IMG/VR virus record: IMGVR_UViG_3300034101_001153
Coordinates: 32,177-96,176 of that record
DNA: 64,000 nt
From: a virus
Strand: one strand, 5' to 3'
The position numbers and the translations under genes were made by a program. Shown here one piece after another: positions 2,204-64,000 of this stretch. Within the stretch, counting starts at the first letter, position 1. The number at the start of each line of letters is the position of its first letter. The notes beneath the pieces were generated by a model. The model was not told where the DNA came from, ran no database searches, and saw nothing but the letters and a program-made list of their open reading frames with translations.

Positions 2204-2207
2204 TTTG

Positions 2208-2280
2208 TGTGCCTGGAGGGATTCGAACCCCCAACCTAATGGGTAGAAACCATTTGCGCTATCCGTTGCGCCACAGGCAC
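2208..2280 (-). tRNA. tRNA-Arg (TCT)
   Basis: GTGCCTG/CAGGCAC acceptor, AATGG-TTTCTAC-CCATT. Confidence 0.95.
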
Positions 2281-2284
2281 CTAG

Positions 2285-2355
2285 AGCGAGTGACCAGAAT
2301 CGAACTGGCGATAACTGCTTGGAAGGCAGATGTGTTACCTCTACACCACACTCGC
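2285..2355 (-). tRNA. tRNA-Gly (TCC)
   Basis: GCGAGTG/CACTCGC acceptor, U73, CTTCCAA loop. Confidence 0.95.
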
Positions 2356-2368
2356 GGATATATCTTAG

Positions 2369-2450
2369 TAGGGCAGGTGGGATTTGAACCCACATGGACC
2401 AATTACGGCATTATAATCCCTCGCTTATAAGACGAGACCGATACTGCCCC
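2369..2450 (-). tRNA. atypical D-armless tRNA-like RNA, anticodon TAT (Ile)
   Basis: Acceptor GGGGCAG/CTGCCCT, 7-nt linker TATCGGT, CTCGT-CTTATAA-GCGAG, 26-nt variable region, GTGGG-TTCAAAT-CCCAC. Confidence 0.8.
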
Positions 2451-2461
2451 TCGCTTTTTAA

Positions 2462-2704
2462 TTATGCAGACGATTCTGACTTACTATTAATTGTATCTCT
2501 TTCATCCAGAATGTCAAGGGCTTTTTCGAATAAGGAAGGCTCAAATTTTGAATAGTGATGCCCACAGAAAAAAAGATTTCCAGTATTAAATTTTACAAGA
2601 ACAAATGCTTGTGCAGGACAATCTTTTGCATCACATCTATCTGATTTAGTTAAAACTCCATGTTGTGGTTCAGTTTTATCTTCTTGCATTACTGCTGTTT
2701 CCAC
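2462..2704 (-). CDS. small Cys/His (Zn-binding) hypothetical protein
   Basis: DRCDAKDC...FCGHH motif; GTG start after AAAGGAGG. Confidence 0.7.
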   Translation of the reverse strand: METAVMQEDKTEPQHGVLTKSDRCDAKDCPAQAFVLVKFNTGNLFFCGHHYSKFEPSLFEKALDILDERDTINSKSESSA

Positions 2705-2747
2705 AGCGCCTCCTTTATGAGTATACAATTATTTTATCATTATTTTG

Positions 2748-3282: not shown

Positions 3283-3816
3283 TTATTTTACCACCTTTGA
3301 GCAATAATCGTACATAATAATTCCAGATGCAGTTCCGACATTTAAGGACCTTACTGATCCATACTGTTTAATATAAACAATATCATCAGCCATAGAAAGG
3401 GCTTCATCAGATAGGCCCCTGCCCTCTTCTCCAAAGAGCATTAATGACTTTGCATCCCATGAGTAACTATTTAGTTCTCTTGCTCCATCGACATTATCAA
3501 TGGCGACAATACGATACCCAATGCTACGATAATATTCAATGGTATCCACAATGGACTCGTTATAGTCCAAATGCTCATAGTTATGAGTGCCGACCGTGCC
3601 TCGCCTATCATATTTTTTAATTCCACAGCGAATCACCTTCTTTCCAAGAAATGCATTATTGTTTCTTACAACTGTAGAAAAATTAAAATCACCATTAAGT
3701 CTTTCTACTACTACGACAAAATCGTTTCTTTTAGAATCTAGGTCGGCAATGATTGCCTCGTTCTCCCAGTACTTATAAAAATCTGATACGTTCCTAGTGT
3801 CAATCATAGTTTTCAT
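3283..3816 (-). CDS. trmH: SpoU/TrmH-family (SPOUT) RNA 2'-O-methyltransferase
   Basis: Motifs NFSTVVR, FGEEGRGL, SLNVGTASGIIMY. Confidence 0.9.
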   Translation of the reverse strand: MKTMIDTRNVSDFYKYWENEAIIADLDSKRNDFVVVVERLNGDFNFSTVVRNNNAFLGKKVIRCGIKKYDRRGTVGTHNYEHLDYNESIVDTIEYYRSIGYRIVAIDNVDGARELNSYSWDAKSLMLFGEEGRGLSDEALSMADDIVYIKQYGSVRSLNVGTASGIIMYDYCSKVVK

Positions 3817-57974: not shown

Positions 57975-58667
57975 ATGAAGATAGATGTTCTAGATCATGG
58001 ATATGTTAGATTAATTGGAAACTTCGGCTCTGACCTTGAAGTAGTTAATTCTGCTAGAGTATCTTATGATAAATCCGTAGACTTTATTGACTCTAAAGAT
58101 GAAAGACTTCTTGAATTTTTAATTAAGAATAAACATGATTCAACTCTTAGACATTGTACCATCTCCTTTGAAATTTACGCCCCTTTGATGATTGCCAGAC
58201 AATGGTACAAGCACGCGGTATCTAGTACTCATTTAGACGATCAAAACGGATGGAACGAATCGTCGCGCCGTTACGTTACAGAAGAACCAGTCTTTTACGA
58301 GCCGCGAAAATGGAGAACATCCCCATCAAATTCCAAACAAGGATCTGGCGATCCAGTGCATCCTGACATGTCTGCACGCATTAGCGAGCGACTTAAGTAT
58401 CATATTGACGAATCTGTCAATTTGTACAATTCTTTGCTCGCATCTGGCGTGGCAACAGAGCAGGCACGTTTATTTCTTCCCGCATATGCGATGTATGTCC
58501 GCTGGCGCTGGACAACAAGCCTTAATGCAGTATTACACTTTTGCTCACTACGTCAGGCAGAAGATGCTCAGTTAGAAATACAAGAATACGGAAATGCTGT
58601 ATTATCTATAGTCAAAGACTTATATCCTTTGTCAACGAGATATTGGGAGCGGCACAGAATTGGATGA
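57975..58667 (+). CDS. thyX: flavin-dependent thymidylate synthase
   Basis: NSARVSY, ARQWYKH, NESSRRY, EQAR, AQLEI. Confidence 0.95.
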   Translation: MKIDVLDHGYVRLIGNFGSDLEVVNSARVSYDKSVDFIDSKDERLLEFLIKNKHDSTLRHCTISFEIYAPLMIARQWYKHAVSSTHLDDQNGWNESSRRYVTEEPVFYEPRKWRTSPSNSKQGSGDPVHPDMSARISERLKYHIDESVNLYNSLLASGVATEQARLFLPAYAMYVRWRWTTSLNAVLHFCSLRQAEDAQLEIQEYGNAVLSIVKDLYPLSTRYWERHRIG

Positions 58668-58866
58668 CAATATACAAGATATCAATGAACACCTAGGCAT
58701 GGTTACTTTTATCATGTTAGGTAGAATATACGATATGCTTGCTTTGATCGCAGATGGAGTAGGCAAGGGTGAAGACGCATTGCGTCTGATTGAACTCCAT
58801 AGATCAGGGGAGATTATGTCACCGCCCCCGTCTTTAAACGTAGAGGAAGAAGATGAACAATCTTAA
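58660..58866 (+). CDS. hypothetical protein
   Basis: Coupled ORF. Confidence 0.7.
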   Translation: MDDNIQDINEHLGMVTFIMLGRIYDMLALIADGVGKGEDALRLIELHRSGEIMSPPPSLNVEEEDEQS

Positions 58867-59125
58867 AATTGAAATTATGAGATATAAGTTATCTCATGGA
58901 TGCATGATCTGTGGATATGATAAAAATCCTCATGTATTACATTTTGCTCATCGTGATCCTGCTACTAAGTATAGAAATAAATATGGCAAGGTTGTAGAAC
59001 CATCAGATATGATCAAGGGTCGCCACCGCCCCAGATATGGAGCAGCAACTGTATGGAAAGAAGTTGCTAAATGTGATGTTCTTTGCTCTAACTGTCATGG
59101 TGAGCAAACGTATCCGTTATCCTGA
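58853..59125 (+). CDS. small HNH-like protein
   Basis: CMICG...LHFAH...KCDVLCSNCH. Confidence 0.75.
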   Translation: MNNLKIEIMRYKLSHGCMICGYDKNPHVLHFAHRDPATKYRNKYGKVVEPSDMIKGRHRPRYGAATVWKEVAKCDVLCSNCHGEQTYPLS

Positions 59126-59232
59126 CGTTATCAAATCGTTATATTCTAATTTTAGAAAAATGTGAATATGTGTAATTCTTGTACGATGCTAATATAAAAA
59201 CTCAGCATTATGCGGATATTAGTGAGCCCATA

Positions 59233-59248
59233 TGTGACCTACCCCACA
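59233..59248. promoter_or_regulatory. CRP/GlxR-like box
   Basis: TGTGA-CCTACC-CCACA versus consensus TGTGA-N6-TCACA. Confidence 0.5.
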
Positions 59249-59440
59249 TAGAAATGTGTCCGATATGAGGACATTTGGGCATATTCCTTGCCTTTCAAGT
59301 TGCGATCTGTCATACCCCCATGCTAGGGTGTACCTATAACTAAATAATCCTGAGCAAATAAACCGCCTCGCGGGTGAGCCTCAGGCCACAGAATGTCAGA
59401 CCCCTGTGCTAGACTCAGGGCAGAAAGAAAGGAGATGATC

Positions 59441-59608
59441 ATGCATCGTGCAAAGATCACCGCGCTCTCGCAATACAGCGGCGAGCAGGTTCACATCGTT
59501 GAGGTAGAAGGTCACACCTTCTACGCGACAGTAGTTGGCACCGTCAAGGGCATCACGCTCGCTGGTGCCGTTGTCACCGCCCTTGAGATTGAGGAGGTGT
59601 CCGCATGA
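59441..59608 (+). CDS. hypothetical protein
   Basis: SD AAAGGAG; track start at 59393 lies inside the promoter motif. Confidence 0.7.
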   Translation: MHRAKITALSQYSGEQVHIVEVEGHTFYATVVGTVKGITLAGAVVTALEIEEVSA

Positions 59609-59892
59609 TTGAGGTTTCTCGTATCGTCAAGGGCTTTGCCCATGACCTGCCTGCCTTGTTTGAGGCTCCCATCGTTTCGGGCAACTTTGTTGCCACTCTT
59701 TGGATGACCGCCGAACCTATGACGGACTGGCGCAACTATGAGTTTGTGCGCGTCACTGAGGTTGAGTCTGGCGAAAGTATTGACCTAGACATCTATGACA
59801 GCGTAACATGGCTACAGCCCGAAGATGCCGACAGCCCTGCGCTACAGGCTGAACTCATTACTGCACTTGCTGCGAAAGGAATAGAACTGTGA
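59605..59892 (+). CDS. hypothetical protein
   Basis: SD GGAGGT, ATGA overlap. Confidence 0.75.
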   Translation: MIEVSRIVKGFAHDLPALFEAPIVSGNFVATLWMTAEPMTDWRNYEFVRVTEVESGESIDLDIYDSVTWLQPEDADSPALQAELITALAAKGIEL

Positions 59893-59984
59893 GAACCTTT
59901 GCACAACATCTCTTGTCTTTTGTAATCGTTGGCGGTATTCTTACTGCTATGGCTATCGCTGGTGGAATAGAGGGAGGCTTCTAA
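59889..59984 (+). CDS. 31-aa membrane peptide
   Basis: GTG start overlapping stop; hydrophobic; not in track. Confidence 0.6.
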   Translation: MRTFAQHLLSFVIVGGILTAMAIAGGIEGGF

Positions 59985-60256
59985 TGGTAAAGGTTCAGTC
60001 TTTCGATGGTATGTCCTTGGTGAATGCGAAGGCTGAGATTCAGCACCCGCTCGCTGATGAGGTGTCTATCGCTATTGGTGATGGTGCCATGGCACGCTTC
60101 CCCTACTCTGTAGAACTTGCATTCTTCAAGAATGGCGATTGGCAAGAGTATATTCTTGAAGAGTTTGCTGCATATCACTCTGGCGGTGTGTATGCGTATG
60201 TTCCCTTGGAGATGTTCGCTAACTTCCTTGAGGCTTGGAGGGTTCGGTATGCTTGA
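59984..60256 (+). CDS. hypothetical protein
   Basis: SD GGAGG. Confidence 0.75.
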   Translation: MVKVQSFDGMSLVNAKAEIQHPLADEVSIAIGDGAMARFPYSVELAFFKNGDWQEYILEEFAAYHSGGVYAYVPLEMFANFLEAWRVRYA

Positions 60257-60437
60257 TCTTCATGATTCCCGCACGGGACGGACGTATCGTTGGAATGAAT
60301 CGCACACCGTCAGCATCTATAACCGCGAGGGTGAAGAAATCGACTGCTTCACCTTTGGATTCATGGCAGACGGTAGCACTCCAACCTTTGTAGAGTTTTG
60401 CGCGGCAGTGAATAGGAGAATTAGAGAGTATGTCTAA
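60249..60437 (+). CDS. hypothetical protein (MLDLHDS...)
   Basis: SD GGAGG; overlap coupling. Confidence 0.7.
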   Translation: MLDLHDSRTGRTYRWNESHTVSIYNREGEEIDCFTFGFMADGSTPTFVEFCAAVNRRIREYV

Positions 60438-60630
60438 CGTGAAAGTCAATCCACCCGATGCATTCATCATGAATTGCAAGATGATGTATAACGAGGTCGG
60501 GCAGATGCAGGATCGCATCAGTAGAATGTGGGCATCATCCGATGGTGAGCGTGATCAGTCCATGCTGGAATACATAGAGGACATGCTAGAGAATATCGAA
60601 ATAGAGTTGCGAAATAGACTTGACAATTAG
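60430..60630 (+). CDS. hypothetical protein
   Basis: SD AGGAG. Confidence 0.7.
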   Translation: MSNVKVNPPDAFIMNCKMMYNEVGQMQDRISRMWASSDGERDQSMLEYIEDMLENIEIELRNRLDN

Positions 60631-60668
60631 CGTTTTGTGGCCCGGCACACCTAGCGCACTTTGTCAAG
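60619..60668. repeat. CTTGACAA-GGCCCGGCAC-TTGTCAAG element, copy 1
   Basis: 8-bp IR flanking a central conserved decamer. Confidence 0.8.
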
Positions 60669-60678
60669 TCCTTTAAGA

Positions 60679-60694
60679 TGTGATTTACGACACT
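60679..60694. promoter_or_regulatory. CRP/GlxR-like box
   Basis: TGTGA-TTTACG-ACACT. Confidence 0.45.
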
Positions 60695-60783
60695 CACGAA
60701 AATGTCCCAGATAGCGGAACAGACCCCCTTCACTGTCAGACCCCCATGATAAGGTATACCTAGATAGAAAGAAGGGTTTTACC

Positions 60784-60903
60784 ATGACAAAGTTCGCATA
60801 CATTGACTACTCCGCCGACGCGCAAGAGCGCGAGGATTGGCTGGCATGGCTCCAGGCTAAGGCTGAAGAGCGTAGACTGTCAGACTCTCATGGTAAGGTA
60901 TGA
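60784..60903 (+). CDS. 39-aa hypothetical (MTKFAYID...)
   Basis: Behind motif promoter and SD. Confidence 0.65.
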   Translation: MTKFAYIDYSADAQEREDWLAWLQAKAEERRLSDSHGKV

Positions 60904-60905
60904 GC

Positions 60906-61010
60906 ATGAACCTAGAAGAACTATACGAGAACTTCCTCCGCTTGGAGGCCACCCTTGACCTTGACCCCAACCCTTGGGTGTCAGACCATGATGATAAGGT
61001 GAAGCCATGA
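60906..61010 (+). CDS. 34-aa hypothetical, leaderless
   Basis: ATG 6 nt after TAAGGT. Confidence 0.65.
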   Translation: MNLEELYENFLRLEATLDLDPNPWVSDHDDKVKP

Positions 61011-61138
61011 CAACATACAAGGTGTTCGTAGATGGAGAGTTTTTCTCCACGGTTGCCACCCGCGAGGGTGCTGAGACTATTCGTGACTTTTGGGCATCAC
61101 CCCGTCAGACTGTTGAGATTGTGGAGGTGGGAGCATGA
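61007..61138 (+). CDS. 43-aa hypothetical, leaderless
   Basis: ATG 6 nt after TAAGGT. Confidence 0.7.
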   Translation: MTTYKVFVDGEFFSTVATREGAETIRDFWASPRQTVEIVEVGA

Positions 61139-61278
61139 CCACAGTAGAGTTTGAGAAGGCATGGCTGGATAACTACTACATGCTTGGCGACCATGCTTTC
61201 GACTATGCGCGGTGCATGTATCTGGACGACGGCACTCTGATTGTCGATGGAGTGCGCTATGAGGAGGTTCCTTTCTAA
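61135..61278 (+). CDS. 47-aa acidic protein ending EEVPF
   Basis: SD GGAGGT, ATGA overlap. Confidence 0.7.
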   Translation: MTTVEFEKAWLDNYYMLGDHAFDYARCMYLDDGTLIVDGVRYEEVPF

Positions 61279-61430
61279 TGCAGAATATCTACAAGGTCTA
61301 CTACGGTGGACAGTACATGTGTTCATTCTTTGATAGGGATGGTGCCCTTGATTGGGTCGCCACCCTCCTCGCGGAAGGCGAGGGGACCTTCGATGACTAC
61401 GAGATTCTGGATGGGAGTGACTTCCTATGA
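61278..61430 (+). CDS. 50-aa hypothetical
   Basis: SD GGAGG, TAATG overlap. Confidence 0.7.
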   Translation: MQNIYKVYYGGQYMCSFFDRDGALDWVATLLAEGEGTFDDYEILDGSDFL

Positions 61431-61558
61431 GTTACCATCCCATCACTCACGATGAATTCGATCAGATACTGCGCGAGTCGGAGATTCGTTGTCGGACCCT
61501 CATGATAGGATCTTTCTATGTTGAGAAGCAGGAAGCAAGCGGGGAAGCACAAGACTAA
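61427..61558 (+). CDS. 43-aa hypothetical
   Basis: SD GGGAG, ATGA overlap. Confidence 0.5.
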   Translation: MSYHPITHDEFDQILRESEIRCRTLMIGSFYVEKQEASGEAQD

Positions 61559-61664
61559 TTGCTACTTTGGCTGTTGCCGTAGCATGACCAAGAAGCAGGA
61601 ACGTCGCTACCTGAAGCGGCGGGAAACTAACGAGTGGAAGAAGGATCAGAATGTGGCAGGATAG
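61518..61664 (+). CDS. 48-aa basic Cys-containing protein, leaderless
   Basis: ATG 6 nt after TAGGAT. Confidence 0.65.
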   Translation: MLRSRKQAGKHKTNCYFGCCRSMTKKQERRYLKRRETNEWKKDQNVAG

Positions 61665-61866
61665 TGCAGCGTGCAAGGATGCAGACTCTAGTCTGTTTCT
61701 AAGTGGTGTGACCTCGCGTGTAGAGAAGGCTAAGGCTATTTGTGCAACGTGTAGCGTGATCGACAAGTGCCTTGCATTTGCGATTGCTAATGAAGATTTT
61801 GAGCCGCATGTCTACGGTGGAATGACTGGTGAGGAGAGGCGGCGTGTCGCCTTGACAAATGCCTGA
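61651..61866 (+). CDS. whiB: WhiB-family transcription factor
   Basis: WQDSAAC...AKAICATCSVIDKCL...VYGGMTGEERR. Confidence 0.92.
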   Translation: MWQDSAACKDADSSLFLSGVTSRVEKAKAICATCSVIDKCLAFAIANEDFEPHVYGGMTGEERRRVALTNA

Positions 61867-61901
61867 AAGTGGGCCCGGCACGCCCAATCATATTTGTCAA
61901 G
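61851..61901. repeat. CTTGACAAAT-GGCCCGGCAC-ATTTGTCAAG element, copy 2
   Basis: Perfect 10-bp IR around the central decamer. Confidence 0.8.
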
Positions 61902-61911
61902 TGCTTACGAC

Positions 61912-61927
61912 TGTGATTAAGACCACA
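61912..61927. promoter_or_regulatory. CRP/GlxR-like box
   Basis: TGTGA-TTAAGA-CCACA. Confidence 0.5.
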
Positions 61928-61972
61928 CTGAAATATTCGCAGAATGTCAGCCCCCTATGCTATAGTCGTGCT

Positions 61973-62119
61973 ATGAGTAATCGTGTGAGCCACCGCCGTA
62001 GCGCGGAGCATAATCGTATCGTGCAGGAGCGCCGCCGTTCTAGTGCCGCGCAGCCTCATAAGAATAAGGCCAAGTATTCGCGCAAGGCCAAGCATCGTAA
62101 CCGTTTCGTTACCGACTGA
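61973..62119 (+). CDS. 48-aa highly basic peptide with ArfA-like tail, leaderless
   Basis: ATG 6 nt after TATAGT; HKNKAKYSRKAKH. Confidence 0.7.
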   Translation: MSNRVSHRRSAEHNRIVQERRRSSAAQPHKNKAKYSRKAKHRNRFVTD

Positions 62120-62169
62120 TACCCCTTATCCCCCTATCCATTGTCAGACCCCCATGATAGGATCATTCC

Positions 62170-62727
62170 ATGATTACAGTTACCGCCCCTGAGGGCACCA
62201 TCGAATACGCTACCTATGCCGCTCGCTTTGAGAGCCTTATCATGACCGCCACCCTCGCGCAGATGGAGCAAGCCTCCGTCTGGTATCGTGACGCGGAGGA
62301 GGTTGCGGAGGAGGTTGCTCGCAACCTTGACACTACCCTAGAGGTAGGCGCATCCATTGTCGCAGCATTCTCGCCGCGTGAGCGTTGGTCCACTAACGTC
62401 GCTAAGGCTATCGCGTTCTCGCTTGGCTCGCGTCCCGCTGGCCTTGGCAATAACCTCCGCATGGCAGATGCCGCGCTCGCGGCAGGCTTCGATGCGCTCA
62501 AGGGTCCTAAGACTAACGCTTTCGCTCGCGCTATCGCAGGCGACACTAACGCGGTTGTCATTGACGTTTGGATGATGCGTGCGGCAGGCATGGAGACTGA
62601 CTCTCCTAATAAGACTCAATACGCTCTACTGTCTGAGGCTGTCACCGCTGTCGCTGCACAGTTTGGCATCACGCCTCGCACCGCGCAGGCTCTTATCTGG
62701 ATCATCGTGCGAGGGGGTGCGGCGTGA
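62170..62727 (+). CDS. conserved phage protein, possible HhH-GPD glycosylase-like fold, leaderless
   Basis: WY...AAFSP...W...GPKTNAF...VVIDVW...QALIW. Confidence 0.65.
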   Translation: MITVTAPEGTIEYATYAARFESLIMTATLAQMEQASVWYRDAEEVAEEVARNLDTTLEVGASIVAAFSPRERWSTNVAKAIAFSLGSRPAGLGNNLRMADAALAAGFDALKGPKTNAFARAIAGDTNAVVIDVWMMRAAGMETDSPNKTQYALLSEAVTAVAAQFGITPRTAQALIWIIVRGGAA

Positions 62728-62782
62728 ACGATATCACGCTAGAGAATTTTCGGGAGATGTTGCGCGACTTTTCGGGGGTGTG

Positions 62783-62854
62783 ATGCTTCTTCTATCTATT
62801 TTGGTAGTGTCGCTTCTCGCGCTAGGGTTTCTCATATCACTTAGAAAGGAGTGA
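62783..62854 (+). CDS. 23-aa hydrophobic peptide
   Basis: MLLLSILVVSLLALGFLISLRKE, coupled to a 19-aa ORF at 62724-62783. Confidence 0.45.
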   Translation: MLLLSILVVSLLALGFLISLRKE

Positions 62855-62881
62855 AAAACCCTTATTTTTAAAGGGTTTTTT
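62854..62881 (+). terminator. intrinsic terminator
   Basis: AAAAACCCTT/AAGGGTTTTTT. Confidence 0.75.
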
Positions 62882-62890
62882 GGAACTGGC

Positions 62891-62919
62891 GGCCCGGCAC
62901 ATCTTATTCATCATGTCAA
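62891..62919. repeat. GGCCCGGCAC...TGTCAA element, copy 3 (left arm missing)
   Basis: Same decamer and right arm at the same spacing. Confidence 0.7.
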
Positions 62920-63032
62920 ATCATTATTAAGATAATTATTACGGAGTCACTGAAAAAGTCACTGAAATTTTTCTTGATGCTGTCAGACCCATCTGCTATA
63001 TTTATATCACCTAGACAGAAAGGATATCCGTT

Positions 63033-63188
63033 ATGGCAAAGAATAAGGGAAACAAGTTCTCATATCTTGAGACTTGGAACACTCGCTACGGGACTCAGAC
63101 TCGTATTGTCACCCGTATTAATGGCAAGTTCGTTGATTCCACCCCCGCACTTGAGACACTTCGCAAGGGCGTCCCTGCTGGTCGCTGA
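63033..63188 (+). CDS. 51-aa basic hypothetical (MAKNKGNKF...)
   Basis: Motif promoter plus SD GAAAGGA; not in track. Confidence 0.75.
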   Translation: MAKNKGNKFSYLETWNTRYGTQTRIVTRINGKFVDSTPALETLRKGVPAGR

Positions 63189-63197
63189 CTAGCAGAA

Positions 63198-63227
63198 TGA
63201 TCCTGGGCATGATCGCTAAAACTGCCT
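63198..63227 (+). ncRNA. H-type pseudoknot motif, copy 1
   Basis: GATC-CTGGGCAT-GATC-GCTAAAAC-TGCCT. Confidence 0.6.
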
Positions 63228-63314
63228 GAGGGGACATGCGATCCGCTATCACACCTTGTTTGGCGAATGGAGGGTGGGATTCCTTCCTAAGATAGCATCA
63301 ACTCGCTTCCCCTC
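63228..63314 (+). ncRNA. candidate multi-helix ncRNA abutting tRNA-Leu
   Basis: GAGGGGA/TCCCCTC, GCGA/TCGC, GCTATC/GATAGC, CACCTT/AGGGTG. Confidence 0.55.
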
Positions 63315-63316
63315 TA

Positions 63317-63398
63317 GCCCAAGTGGTGGAATTGGCAGACACGCACGACTCAAAATCGTGTTCCGCTTGGAGTGTGGGTTCAAGTCCCACCTTGGGCA
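63317..63398 (+). tRNA. tRNA-Leu (CAA)
   Basis: GCCCAAG/CTTGGGC, CACGA-CTCAAAA-TCGTG, variable arm, GGTTCAAGTCC. Confidence 0.95.
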
Positions 63399-63504
63399 CG
63401 CTAGTTATAGCACCTTGGACAATGCACCTGTATACAGAGAGGGTCGCAACCAATCATATATAGGGCCGAGATTCAAGGTCACTAGGCAAGCAACTCATAT
63501 ATGA

Positions 63505-63531
63505 CTTCCTGAGCATGAAGATAAAAGGCTC
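63505..63531 (+). ncRNA. H-type pseudoknot motif, copy 2
   Basis: CTTC-CTGAGCAT-GAAG-ATAAAAG-GCTC followed by a T-tract. Confidence 0.6.
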
Positions 63532-63595
63532 CTTTTTCTTGATAATGTCAGACCCATATGATAGAGTTCTACTACCTACTAAGAAAGGAAGCATA

Positions 63596-63742
63596 ATGAT
63601 TACTGTTGGCTCACAGTTCACCACCGCCAAGAGCGGTGTCACAGGTACGGTTCAGGAGGTTGTCACCAACACTAGTGGTTCGATGCGCGTTCGCCTTAGC
63701 GTGAATGGTCAGGACCGCTGGACGACTGTGAAGGGTGCATAG
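63596..63742 (+). CDS. 48-aa KOW/SH3-like protein
   Basis: Motif promoter plus SD GAAAGGAAG; MITVGSQF... Confidence 0.75.
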   Translation: MITVGSQFTTAKSGVTGTVQEVVTNTSGSMRVRLSVNGQDRWTTVKGA

Positions 63743-63744
63743 TC

Positions 63745-64000
63745 ATGGGAGACCGCGCTAACTTTGGAATCCGTCAGAATGACGGCAACATCATCTTCAT
63801 CTACGGACATTGGGCAGGCGAGGGTATGCTTGCTAAGTTTGCTAATGCTCTTGATCATGTTCAGAATGTTGGACGTATTGACGACCAGGCTTATGCAAAT
63901 CGCATCATCATCTCGCAGTTGGTTGGCGAGTCTTGGTCTGGCGATCTTGGCTGGGGTGTTACTGTGAACTACCTTGCAGACAACGAGCATAAGGTTCCTG
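63745..64000 (+). CDS. hypothetical protein, truncated by window end
   Basis: MGDRANF...IYGHWAG open to the end of the window. Confidence 0.75.
   Translation, partial: MGDRANFGIRQNDGNIIFIYGHWAGEGMLAKFANALDHVQNVGRIDDQAYANRIIISQLVGESWSGDLGWGVTVNYLADNEHKVP

What the first reader, a model, noticed from the sequence alone, without database searches (positions are those of the whole stretch)
2369..2450. D-armless tRNA with UAU anticodon and enlarged variable arm
Seen: intact acceptor, anticodon and T arms, but only 7 nt (UAUCGGU, retaining a GG) where the ~19-nt D arm region should be, plus a 26-nt variable region that can pair (GGAUUA/UGGUCC). Known: most bacteria avoid UAU anticodons and read AUA with lysidine-modified CAU. 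Stemless D regions are known from mitochondrial tRNAs and the tmRNA tRNA-like domain, not from ordinary bacterial tRNAs. The AT-rich part of this genome uses ATA codons freely. Inference: a non-canonical TilS-independent AUA decoder, or a tRNA mimic/decoy against anticodon nucleases.
Basis: partly seen in the sequence, partly recalled or inferred. Interest (0 to 1): 0.8.

Follow-up and report, generated by a model that had tools for sequence, protein, structure and literature searches.

The report
Phage isoleucine tRNA with rewired D-arm
This 82-base phage gene is most likely a transfer RNA for the isoleucine codon AUA whose D-arm is not lost but split around the anticodon arm, a non-cloverleaf layout shared by hundreds of phages, missed by gene finders and absent from the papers I could search.

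Summary
Window 2450..2369 (minus strand) has intact acceptor, anticodon (UAU) and T arms, seven bases where the D-arm should be, and a 26-base variable region.

It is not a private deletion. I found 21 distinct relatives in metagenomic contigs and in isolated phages (Felix O1-like, rV5-like, crAss-like, Streptomyces BE-cluster, jumbo phages). Their anticodons are UAU, GAU, UCU and CCU.

Comparison changes the structural reading:
- Bases 11-13 of the "linker" pair with the three bases just before a D-loop-like motif (UAAUUGG) that lies behind the anticodon arm. This held in 63 of 63 cells, in six complementary states.
- So the D-stem 5' strand and D-loop appear to have moved 3' of the anticodon arm.
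- The base after GG is A in all nine arginine-type genes (the ArgRS determinant A20) and U in all twelve isoleucine-type genes.

Context fits a working tRNA. Sister phages carry an ordinary tRNA-Ile(UAU) at this locus, no record holds both forms, and ATA makes up 24.5 of 1000 codons here.

Expression, charging and decoding are unproven.

This scan had already reached the same reading on other DNA. I found no publication describing it.

The parts
2369..2450 (-). Whole 82-nt gene (variant X1). RNA position p = 2451 - window coordinate.
   Evidence: Rfam RF00005 36 bits. The custom model R1 scores it 112.5 bits. A 100% identical copy sits in the unrelated context L085.
2444..2450 (-). Acceptor stem, 5' strand (GGGGCAG, nt 1-7).
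   Evidence: Pairs with 2370-2376. All 7 pairs change on both sides across the family.
2442..2443 (-). U8 A9. With the following U this forms an invariant 'UAU'.
   Evidence: Invariant in all 21 family members.
2438..2441 (-). U10 C11 G12 G13: the strand that plays the part of the canonical D-stem 3' strand (22-25). Nt 11-13 pair with 2406-2408.
   Evidence: 63 of 63 cells paired. Six complementary states: CGG/CCG, CUC/GAG, ACC/GGU, CUU/AAG, CGC/GCG, CCC/GGG.
2420..2436 (-). Anticodon arm: CUCGU / CUUAUAA / GCGAG. The anticodon UAU lies at 2427-2429.
   Evidence: The stem covaries. The loop is C-U-N-N-U-A-N in all members.
2409..2419 (-). Spacer of 11 nt (GGAUUAUAAUG). It is variable in the family (4-11 nt).
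   Evidence: Not conserved in X4 or in the isolate-phage members.
2405..2408 (-). C43 C44 G45 (U46): the strand that plays the part of the canonical D-stem 5' strand (10-13).
   Evidence: Covaries with nt 11-13.
2398..2404 (-). D-loop-like motif AAUUGGU (equivalents of A14 A15 Y16 Y17 G18 G19 N20).
   Evidence: UAA..GG is invariant. The base after GG is U in all 12 Ile-type genes and A in all 9 Arg-type genes.
2394..2397 (-). Connector CCAU. The final AU is invariant (proposed A21 and U48 equivalents).
   Evidence: The assignment to positions 21 and 48 is inference.
2377..2393 (-). T arm: GUGGG / UUCAAAU / CCCAC.
2369..2376 (-). Acceptor stem 3' strand (2370-2376) and discriminator A (2369). 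The next base is C, and no CCA is encoded.
2490..2517 (-). Promoter-like site TTGACA-16-TACAAT, 40 nt upstream of the gene, inside the end of ORF88.
   Evidence: consensus match only. Conserved in L082 and L002 but not in L086 or L004.

Best explanation
The gene encodes a working elongator tRNA-Ile(UAU) that reads the phage's abundant AUA codons, but its core is wired differently from the cloverleaf.

Layout. After U8-A9 the chain goes straight into the strand that normally forms the 3' half of the D-stem (UCGG). One base later comes the anticodon arm. After an 11-nt spacer come the other D-stem strand (CCGU) and a D-loop-like AAUUGGU. A short connector ending in AU leads to the T arm. In effect, canonical segment 10-21 sits behind the anticodon arm.

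Shown here:
- the three ordinary helices;
- the 3-bp D-like helix, by covariation;
- invariance of the bases I assign as U8, A14, A15, G18, G19, A21 and U48 (the invariance is shown; the numbering is inferred);
- the amino-acid-specific base after GG;
- replacement of the canonical allele in sister phages.

Inferred:
- that these parts rebuild the usual L-shape, because each new chain junction would join residues that are neighbours in the canonical core;
- that the transcript is processed by RNase P and the CCA-adding enzyme, charged by host IleRS, and carried by EF-Tu on its intact 7/5 acceptor-T domain.

Why the layout spreads is unknown. Escape from a homing endonuclease at the DNA level, or from a tRNA-targeting host nuclease, are guesses.
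For: 1. Family and covariation. There are 21 distinct sequences (alignment A9). In the acceptor, D-like, anticodon and T helices 98.1% of cells are paired, against 66.7% when shuffled (0 of 500 shuffles reach this) and 43-52% when partners are slid. The D-like helix is paired in 63 of 63 cells and all three of its pairs change on both sides. A census that placed no requirement on the linker or on this pairing found 21 of 21 family members with 3 of 3 Watson-Crick pairs. Mismatched partners gave a mean of 0.97 pairs and never 3 of 3.

2. Identity elements. The base after GG is A in 9 of 9 Arg-anticodon members and U in 12 of 12 Ile members. Arg members also have C35, U36 and A/G73, which is the published arginine identity set A20, C35, U/C36, A/G73 (PMC9976931). 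All Ile members have A73 and A37.

3. Positional orthology. Sister phages L002, L004, L005 and L082 carry a canonical 76-78-nt tRNA-Ile(UAU) at ORF88-[Ile]-Arg. No record holds both forms.

4. Non-redundant decoding slots.
- This phage has no other tRNA-Ile.
- Jumbo-phage contigs with 28 and 32 tRNAs have Ile(GAU) but only the rewired UAU gene.
- The crAss-like phage tikkala has a canonical UAU gene plus a rewired GAU gene.
- Felixounavirus tootiki has tRNAs for 18 amino acids and no Arg apart from the rewired UCU gene.

5. Codon demand. ATA is 24.5 per 1000 codons here and 15-30 per 1000 in relatives.

6. Spread. The sequence is identical in unrelated contexts. Its 31-mers occur in 20 runs from 18 studies. 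It is present in contigs of two freshwater RNA libraries.

7. Feasibility. E. coli EF-Tu and ribosomes accept an engineered tRNA lacking the D-arm (PMC11551756).
Against: - Nothing here shows a mature RNA, aminoacylation or decoding. The RNA-library contigs may be DNA carry-over or precursor.
- The D-like helix is only 3 bp. In this gene the nearest-neighbour model prefers the competing GGAUUA/UGGUCC hairpin: -5.4 kcal/mol for the hairpin against +0.8 for the D-like helix.
- Within the UAU subfamily found by pattern (X1-X5) both strands of the D-like helix are invariant. The covariation therefore comes from the other members.
- Some members carry mismatches: U6.U67 and C27.U43 in X5, and two U.U pairs in the tikkala acceptor stem.
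- E. coli IleRS is reported to use D-stem elements (recalled, not tested here) that may be altered in this layout.
- Later checks of this scan's earlier reports on the same family left the 'working tRNA' reading at about 30/100.
Confidence: 0.6

Rival explanations
1. A conserved tRNA-like RNA that is structured as described but does not decode. It might act as a decoy or sponge for a host tRNA-targeting nuclease, for a modification enzyme or for a synthetase, or as another kind of regulator.
For: - No charging or decoding evidence exists.
- Phages are known to counter tRNA-cleaving defences with their own tRNAs (general knowledge).
- The unusual core could serve to trap or evade a protein.
- The gene often lies beside HNH endonuclease genes.
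- Earlier checks in this scan priced the working-tRNA reading low.
Against: - A decoy does not obviously need a covarying 7-bp acceptor stem, an A73 or A/G73 discriminator, an encoded CCA in many members, or the synthetase determinant A20 tracking the anticodon class.
- In every genome examined its anticodon fills a slot that no canonical tRNA of that phage fills. That is expected of a decoder, not of a mimic.
Confidence: 0.22
2. One reading: a D-armless, Y-shaped tRNA like mitochondrial tRNA-Ser(AGY) or the engineered mini HisT. It would have a floppy 7-nt connector and a self-paired enlarged variable arm, and the 3-bp long-range pairing would be irrelevant.
For: - The MFE of this sequence contains the 6-bp GGAUUA/UGGUCC hairpin, worth -5.4 kcal/mol.
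- In the X5 variants a weaker analogue (CGUUA/UGGUG) can be drawn, with one compensated pair (my reading of the sequences).
- D-armless tRNAs can work in E. coli.
Against: - The hairpin is impossible in X4 and in all isolate-phage members.
- The linker triplet and the triplet before UAA..GG covary perfectly across six states.
- The D-loop-like motif with GG, and the A/U after it, are conserved where a mere variable arm would be free to vary.
Confidence: 0.1
3. A recently damaged tRNA-Ile(UAU) pseudogene (D-arm deletion plus insertion) that is simply decaying, or hitch-hiking with mobile neighbours.
For: - The nearest positional orthologues have a normal D-arm.
- The central 50 nt are identical in X1-X3, which alone could mean recency.
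Against: - Seven UAU variants in 14 contigs, plus 14 further members with other anticodons in unrelated phage groups, keep all helices by compensated changes.
- The flanking protein ORF88 has diverged to 60% identity while X1 and X2 differ at 5 of 82 positions. Four of those five are compensatory.
Confidence: 0.03

Closest known systems
Canonical phage tRNA-Ile(UAU), e.g. the genes at the same locus in sister phages (L082:3263-3338, L002:14295-14372, L004:6147-6223)
   Same: Same locus (ORF88-Ile-Arg). Same anticodon loop CUUAUAA. Near-identical T arm and acceptor stem (92-96% over the 3' 23-25 nt). A73 in both.
   Different: They have an ordinary D hairpin and a 5-nt variable loop, and score 57-59 bits on RF00005 against 35-36 here. 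Here the D-stem 5' strand and D-loop lie behind the anticodon arm.
D-armless mitochondrial tRNA-Ser(AGY) and the engineered E. coli 'mini HisT' (PMC11551756; review PMC7609411)
   Same: [quoted passage not shown] A short connector takes its place. An intact acceptor-T domain is available for EF-Tu.
   Different: Those RNAs lack the D-loop/T-loop contact and are modelled as Y-shaped. This family keeps a D-like helix, a GG motif and the other universal core bases in a new order. It also occurs in phages of bacteria, whereas the 2024 paper states that natural arm-less tRNAs exist only in mitochondria.
allo-tRNAs and 8/4 or 9/3 tRNAs (Mukai et al., PMC5389517)
   Same: Non-standard tRNAs found in bacteria and phages by metagenome mining. 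They have a long variable region, and UAU is among their commonest anticodons.
   Different: allo-tRNAs have 8/4 or 9/3 acceptor-T branches and a long D-stem with a tetraloop. This gene is 7/5 and has no D hairpin.
Circularly permuted tRNA genes of Cyanidioschyzon merolae (own knowledge, not checked here)
   Same: The order of tRNA segments along the gene differs from the standard order.
   Different: There the permutation is undone by processing and the mature tRNA is a normal cloverleaf. Here the 5' and 3' ends are the normal acceptor ends, and the rearrangement would persist in the mature RNA.
TilS-independent tRNA-Ile(UAU) of Mycoplasma mobile (PMC3575796)
   Same: A bacterial-type AUA decoder with an unmodified-C-free UAU anticodon.
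   Different: That tRNA is a normal cloverleaf paired with an adapted IleRS. Nothing is known here about how the host IleRS behaves.
tRNA-like domains of tmRNA and of bacterial Y RNA (YrlA)
   Same: An acceptor/T-arm mimic with a reduced or altered D region.
   Different: Those lack an anticodon arm. ARAGORN finds no tmRNA here. There is no G3.U70. This gene has a full anticodon stem-loop.

Membership tests
Canonical cloverleaf tRNA (Rfam RF00005) | 7-bp acceptor stem closed by the 5' and 3' ends, with an unpaired discriminator | tested here: met
   GGGGCAG/CUGCCCU with G1.U72 and A73. All 7 pairs covary.
Canonical cloverleaf tRNA (Rfam RF00005) | 5-bp anticodon stem, 7-nt loop with U33 and purine 37 | tested here: met
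   CUCGU / CUUAUAA / GCGAG. The stem covaries.
Canonical cloverleaf tRNA (Rfam RF00005) | 5-bp T stem with a UUCRANY loop | tested here: met
   GUGGG / UUCAAAU / CCCAC.
Canonical cloverleaf tRNA (Rfam RF00005) | D hairpin (stem 10-13/22-25 enclosing the D loop) between nt 9 and nt 26 | tested here: not met
   Only 7 nt separate the acceptor and anticodon stems. Rfam deletes 13 model positions. ARAGORN at default settings finds nothing.
Canonical cloverleaf tRNA (Rfam RF00005) | Reaches the family's gathering score | tested here: met
   36 bits against 29. Relatives X4, X5a and X5c fall below it, and X5b reaches 29.4.
Rewired (split D-arm) phage tRNAs: unpublished class seen repeatedly in this scan | 3-bp helix between nt 11-13 and the triplet immediately 5' of UAA..GG, enclosing the anticodon arm | tested here: met
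   CGG/CCG in this gene. 63 of 63 cells paired and six complementary states across 21 sequences.
Rewired (split D-arm) phage tRNAs: unpublished class seen repeatedly in this scan | D-loop-like motif UAA(N)NGG after that triplet, an invariant UAU after the acceptor stem, and an invariant AU before the T stem | tested here: met
   UAU, UAAUUGG and AU are all present.
Rewired (split D-arm) phage tRNAs: unpublished class seen repeatedly in this scan | The base after GG matches the amino-acid class (A for Arg, U for Ile) | tested here: met
   U here. 12 of 12 Ile members have U and 9 of 9 Arg members have A.
Rewired (split D-arm) phage tRNAs: unpublished class seen repeatedly in this scan | Folds into an L-shape, is aminoacylated and is used in translation | not testable with these tools
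   No RNA 3D modelling, probing or charging data are available.
Mitochondrial-type D-armless tRNA | The D region is reduced to a connector with no D-stem equivalent, and the D-loop/T-loop contact bases are lost | tested here: not met
   A covarying D-like helix and a conserved GG motif are present.
allo-tRNA / 8/4-9/3 tRNAs | 12-bp acceptor branch split 8/4 or 9/3, with a long D-stem and tetraloop | tested here: not met
   7/5 split and no D hairpin.
tRNA-Ile reading AUA | Anticodon that pairs with AUA (UAU or modified CAU), A37, A73 | tested here: met
   UAU, A37, A38 and A73. These are invariant in all 8 UAU members.
tRNA-Ile reading AUA | Charged by IleRS with isoleucine | not testable with these tools
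   Needs biochemistry.
tmRNA tRNA-like domain | No anticodon arm, G3.U70, linked mRNA-like ORF | tested here: not met
   A full anticodon arm is present, position 3-70 is G3-C70, and ARAGORN reports no tmRNA.

The most novel reading that the evidence does not exclude
Bacterial ribosomes, EF-Tu and IleRS/ArgRS routinely use natural tRNAs that are not cloverleaves. In these phage tRNAs the D-stem 5' strand and D-loop are transposed behind the anticodon arm, and the RNA still builds the L-shaped core. The layout spreads among unrelated phages because it protects the gene or the RNA from a sequence- or shape-specific nuclease, either a homing HNH endonuclease at the DNA level or a host tRNA-targeting defence.
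Probability: 0.45. Interest if true: 0.9.

Novelty: new variant of a known kind. Interest (0 to 1): 0.8.

Why it matters
- **It challenges a textbook invariant.** The cloverleaf is treated as fixed for all cytosolic and bacterial-type tRNAs. A 2024 paper states that all known bacterial tRNAs are cloverleaves and that natural arm-less tRNAs exist only in mitochondria (PMC11551756). A conserved natural family with a different strand order would show that the tRNA core can be rewired while keeping its tertiary contacts.
- **It is easy to test.** The family includes members in easily grown E. coli and Salmonella phages: Felix O1-like, rV5-like and a BASEL-collection phage.
- **It corrects annotation.** Hundreds of GenBank phage records leave these genes unannotated or call them tRNA-OTHER. 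Felix O1-like phages therefore appear to lack a tRNA-Arg.
- **It offers new scaffolds.** The layout could be used for orthogonal tRNA engineering.
- **It may point to a selective pressure.** Nuclease escape acting on phage tRNA genes is a candidate.

Tried and rejected
- **ARAGORN with relaxed thresholds** gave two poor alternative folds, Tyr(aua) on the same strand and Cys(aca) on the opposite strand. Both have mismatched stems. Rejected.
- **ARAGORN's 90-nt 'tRNA-Ile' call on X2/X3** uses a mismatched, shifted acceptor stem. Rejected in favour of the perfect 7-bp stem.
- **Reading hairpin 1 as a D-arm and the variable region as an anticodon arm** gives loops of 8-12 nt. Rejected.
- **Mini-hairpin CCG-UAAU-UGG in the variable region** is possible in X1-X5 (-2.1 kcal/mol). 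It fails in members with GAG, GGU, AAG or GCG triplets. Rejected as the conserved fold.
- **Promoter inside the gene.** A TATAAT lies in the spacer, but there is no acceptable -35 and the scan did not report it.
- **Exact-pattern scans.** The first viral scan found nothing. The scan of 185,579 bacterial and archaeal genomes found no copy. The two genome hits to a 20-mer of the spacer (L107, L108) lie in unrelated sequence and are chance matches. No copy was found in 5,426 complete E. coli genomes.
- **Expression.** Contigs from two freshwater RNA libraries carry the X2 variant joined to the next tRNA. Contigs cannot show ends, strand or level, and DNA carry-over is possible, so I do not count this as proof of transcription. 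Parts of the stretch without cover in those runs mean nothing.
- **SpoU methylase as a partner specific to the rewired tRNA.** Rejected: it is present equally in sister phages that carry the canonical allele.
- **Literature.** Eight searches found no description of this layout.

Full report
**What is there**

The window is the last 64 kb of a complete 96,176-bp phage record with direct terminal repeats. On its minus strand lies a tRNA cluster in this order: Gln(UUG), a small ORF (ORF88, DUF7455), the candidate, Gly(UCC), Arg(UCU), Asn, Tyr, and further on Met.

Rfam's tRNA model matches 2450..2369 at 36 bits (gathering score 29). It deletes 13 D-arm positions and inserts 23 bases in the variable region. 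ARAGORN misses the gene.

The phage uses ATA for 24.5 of every 1000 codons, a level like AGA and GGA, for which it carries tRNAs. It has no other tRNA-Ile.

**Is it a private deletion?**

Relatives were fetched through the terminase and through ORF88. In the closest phages (L002, L004, L005, L082) a canonical 76-78-nt tRNA-Ile(UAU) with a normal D-arm sits at exactly this position, ORF88-Ile-Arg. Further searches showed otherwise.

- Pattern scans found the same 82 nt at 100% identity in an unrelated context, directly behind a terminase gene that is only 68% identical and in front of an HNH endonuclease gene (L085).
- Two close variants, X2 and X3, occur in seven more viral contigs. They differ from X1 only by three fully compensated pairs (2-71, 6-67, 28-42) and one T-loop base.
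- More distant variants, X4 and X5, sit inside the large tRNA clusters of roughly 200-300-kb phages. Their acceptor, anticodon and T stems are almost entirely different but still paired.
- X's 31-mers occur in 20 sequencing runs from 18 studies of lake, estuary, marine and wastewater samples.
- ORF88 next to X has diverged to 60% protein identity between the X1 and X2 phages, while the RNA differs at 5 of 82 positions.

A decaying pseudogene is not tenable.

**The structure, revised**

Across the seven UAU variants the following are invariant:
- the linker UAUCGGU;
- the anticodon loop;
- an 11-nt core, CCGUAAUUGGU;
- the AU in front of the T stem.

BLAST against GenBank phages then found unannotated relatives with other anticodons in isolated phages:
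- GAU in the crAss-like Kehishuvirus 'tikkala' and in 78 Streptomyces BE-cluster phages;
- UCU in 245 records (Vequintavirinae, Felixounavirus, Asteriusvirus, Mydovirus, Bas94);
- CCU in Streptomyces phage TomSawyer;
- UAU in bajarodcaudo virus 1.

In all of them, nt 11-13 of the "linker" are complementary to the three bases just before UAA..GG. Six states occur: CGG/CCG, CUC/GAG, ACC/GGU, CUU/AAG, CGC/GCG and CCC/GGG.

On the 21-sequence alignment A9 this helix is paired in 63 of 63 cells, and every pair changes on both sides. The whole structure is 98.1% paired, against 66.7% in shuffles (0 of 500 reach it) and 43-52% when partners are slid. A census that did not require the pairing gave 21 of 21 members with three Watson-Crick pairs, while mismatched partners never gave three.

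One caveat applies. X1-X5 were found with patterns that fixed both strands. The covariation therefore rests on the BLAST-found members.

**Mapping to the canonical tRNA**

Read in canonical numbering, the chain runs:
- U8, A9;
- a strand equivalent to 22-25;
- base 26;
- the anticodon arm 27-43;
- a 4-11-nt spacer;
- a strand equivalent to 10-13;
- A14 A15 Y16 Y17 G18 G19 N20;
- a few bases;
- A(21), U(48);
- the T arm.

Segment 10-21 has in effect moved behind the anticodon arm, and total length is conserved (77-82 nt). The universal core bases (U8, A14, R15/Y48, G18, G19, A21) are all kept.

N20 is A in all nine Arg-type genes and U in all twelve Ile-type genes. A20, together with C35, U/C36 and A/G73, is the published arginine identity set (PMC9976931), and the Arg-type genes meet all four.

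That the RNA rebuilds the L-shape is my inference. It rests on the fact that each new chain junction (9 to 22, 43 to 10, 20/21 to 48) joins residues that are neighbours in the known tRNA core.

**Function**

In every genome examined, the rewired gene's anticodon is not duplicated by a canonical tRNA:
- this phage and its X2 relatives have no other tRNA-Ile;
- jumbo contigs with 28 and 32 tRNAs have Ile(GAU) plus only the rewired UAU gene;
- tikkala has a canonical UAU gene plus a rewired GAU gene;
- Felixounavirus tootiki has 24-25 tRNAs for 18 amino acids and no Arg apart from the rewired UCU gene.

Other supporting points:
- No record holds both the canonical and the rewired Ile(UAU).
- Many members encode CCA.
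- A promoter-like site lies 40 nt upstream here, and one ends 10 nt upstream in L085.
- An engineered D-armless tRNA is accepted by E. coli EF-Tu and ribosomes, limited only by PNPase decay (PMC11551756).

I conclude, at about 0.6, that this is a working AUA-reading tRNA-Ile.

Nothing here shows the RNA, its charging or its use. The RNA-library contigs are not proof. In this particular gene a competing hairpin is thermodynamically favoured over the 3-bp helix.

**Spread**

tRNA clusters in this phage group are mosaics. The neighbouring Arg(UCU) genes are only 58-72% identical between phages whose Gln or Gly genes are 93-97% identical.

The rewired gene moves as a unit with breakpoints at its borders. 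It often lies beside HNH endonuclease genes: L085, SSBI34, tootiki and TomSawyer. Homing-driven allele replacement is a plausible but untested reason for its patchy distribution against the canonical allele.

**Comparison with what is known**

The gene is not:
- a mitochondrial-type D-armless tRNA, because it keeps a D-like helix and the GG motif;
- an allo-tRNA, because it is 7/5 rather than 8/4 or 9/3;
- a tmRNA or Y-RNA mimic, because it has a full anticodon arm.

Eight literature searches found no description of this layout. A 2024 paper states that all known bacterial tRNAs are cloverleaves.

After reaching this reading I consulted the scan's notebook. Other agents had reported the same rewired family on other DNA, for Arg(UCU) many times and for Ile(UAU), Tyr and Trp. 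Later checks upheld what was seen but priced the "working tRNA" reading near 30/100, and one related claim partly fell. These are AI notes, not independent evidence. They tempered my confidence, and I say so.

**Verdict**

Novelty: a new topological variant of tRNA, unpublished as far as I could search, though already seen repeatedly within this scan.

Noticed in passing
window 3283-3816 (-): A SpoU/TrmH-family RNA 2'-O-methyltransferase (PF00588, 83.9 bits) is encoded next to the tRNA cluster. It is conserved (51-73% identity) in sister phages whether they carry the canonical or the rewired tRNA-Ile.
   Followed up: partly
L109 (G006), L112 (G009), G008: e.g. L112:10684-10765, L112:11673-11762, L109:5191-5274: Large phages that carry the rewired UAU gene also have many tRNAs of normally short classes with an extra tetraloop hairpin in the variable region. 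Examples: Arg(UCU) 82 nt, Arg(ACG) 90 nt, CAU tRNA 84 nt with an 8-bp acceptor stem, Gln 91, Trp 90, Glu 92, Thr 84.
   Followed up: partly
L109:4804-5004: A group I intron match (RF00028, 63 bits against gathering score 50) inside the tRNA cluster of a jumbo-phage contig.
   Followed up: no
G009:74248-74319, G008:8945-9016 (-), L110:3183-3265 (-), L084:1717-1786: ARAGORN reports tRNAs with undetermined, two-base 'anticodons'. These may be further non-standard tRNAs.
   Followed up: no
L138, L143, L144 (Streptomyces phages Jollison, Targaryen, Lululemon): In BE-cluster Streptomyces phages the rewired Ile(GAU) gene is not in a tRNA cluster. It lies alone between an annotated nucleotidyltransferase gene and an FtsK-like translocase gene.
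   Followed up: no
L085 rc 1709-2248; L134:1586-1945; L136:644-1042; L146:1-435: HNH endonuclease genes lie directly beside rewired tRNA genes in four unrelated contexts. In two GenBank records the annotated HNH ORF overlaps the unannotated tRNA.
   Followed up: partly
window 58000-64000; tRNA-Leu(CAA) at 63317-63399: G+C jumps from about 37% to about 50% over the last 6 kb of the genome, next to the terminal repeat. tRNA-Leu lies here, and tRNA-Glu and tRNA-Asp lie at the other genome end.
   Followed up: no
window 2207-2355 compared with L002:14374-14524: The tRNA cluster is mosaic. The order is Gly-Arg here but Arg-Gly in sister phages. This phage's Arg(UCU) is only 58-72% identical to theirs, while its Gln is 97% identical to that of a more distant phage (L015).
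   Followed up: partly
L025-L075, about 290 nt after the terminase gene (e.g. L025:2761-2835): The clade whose terminase is 65% identical carries a conserved CAU tRNA with a tRNA-Ile-like T loop right after the terminase gene. Whether it is Met or lysidine-dependent Ile2 was not resolved.
   Followed up: no
window 2462-2728 (-): ORF88 (DUF7455, cysteine/histidine-rich) is conserved immediately upstream of the Ile gene in both canonical and rewired phages. In some of them its 3' end contains a near-consensus promoter.
   Followed up: partly
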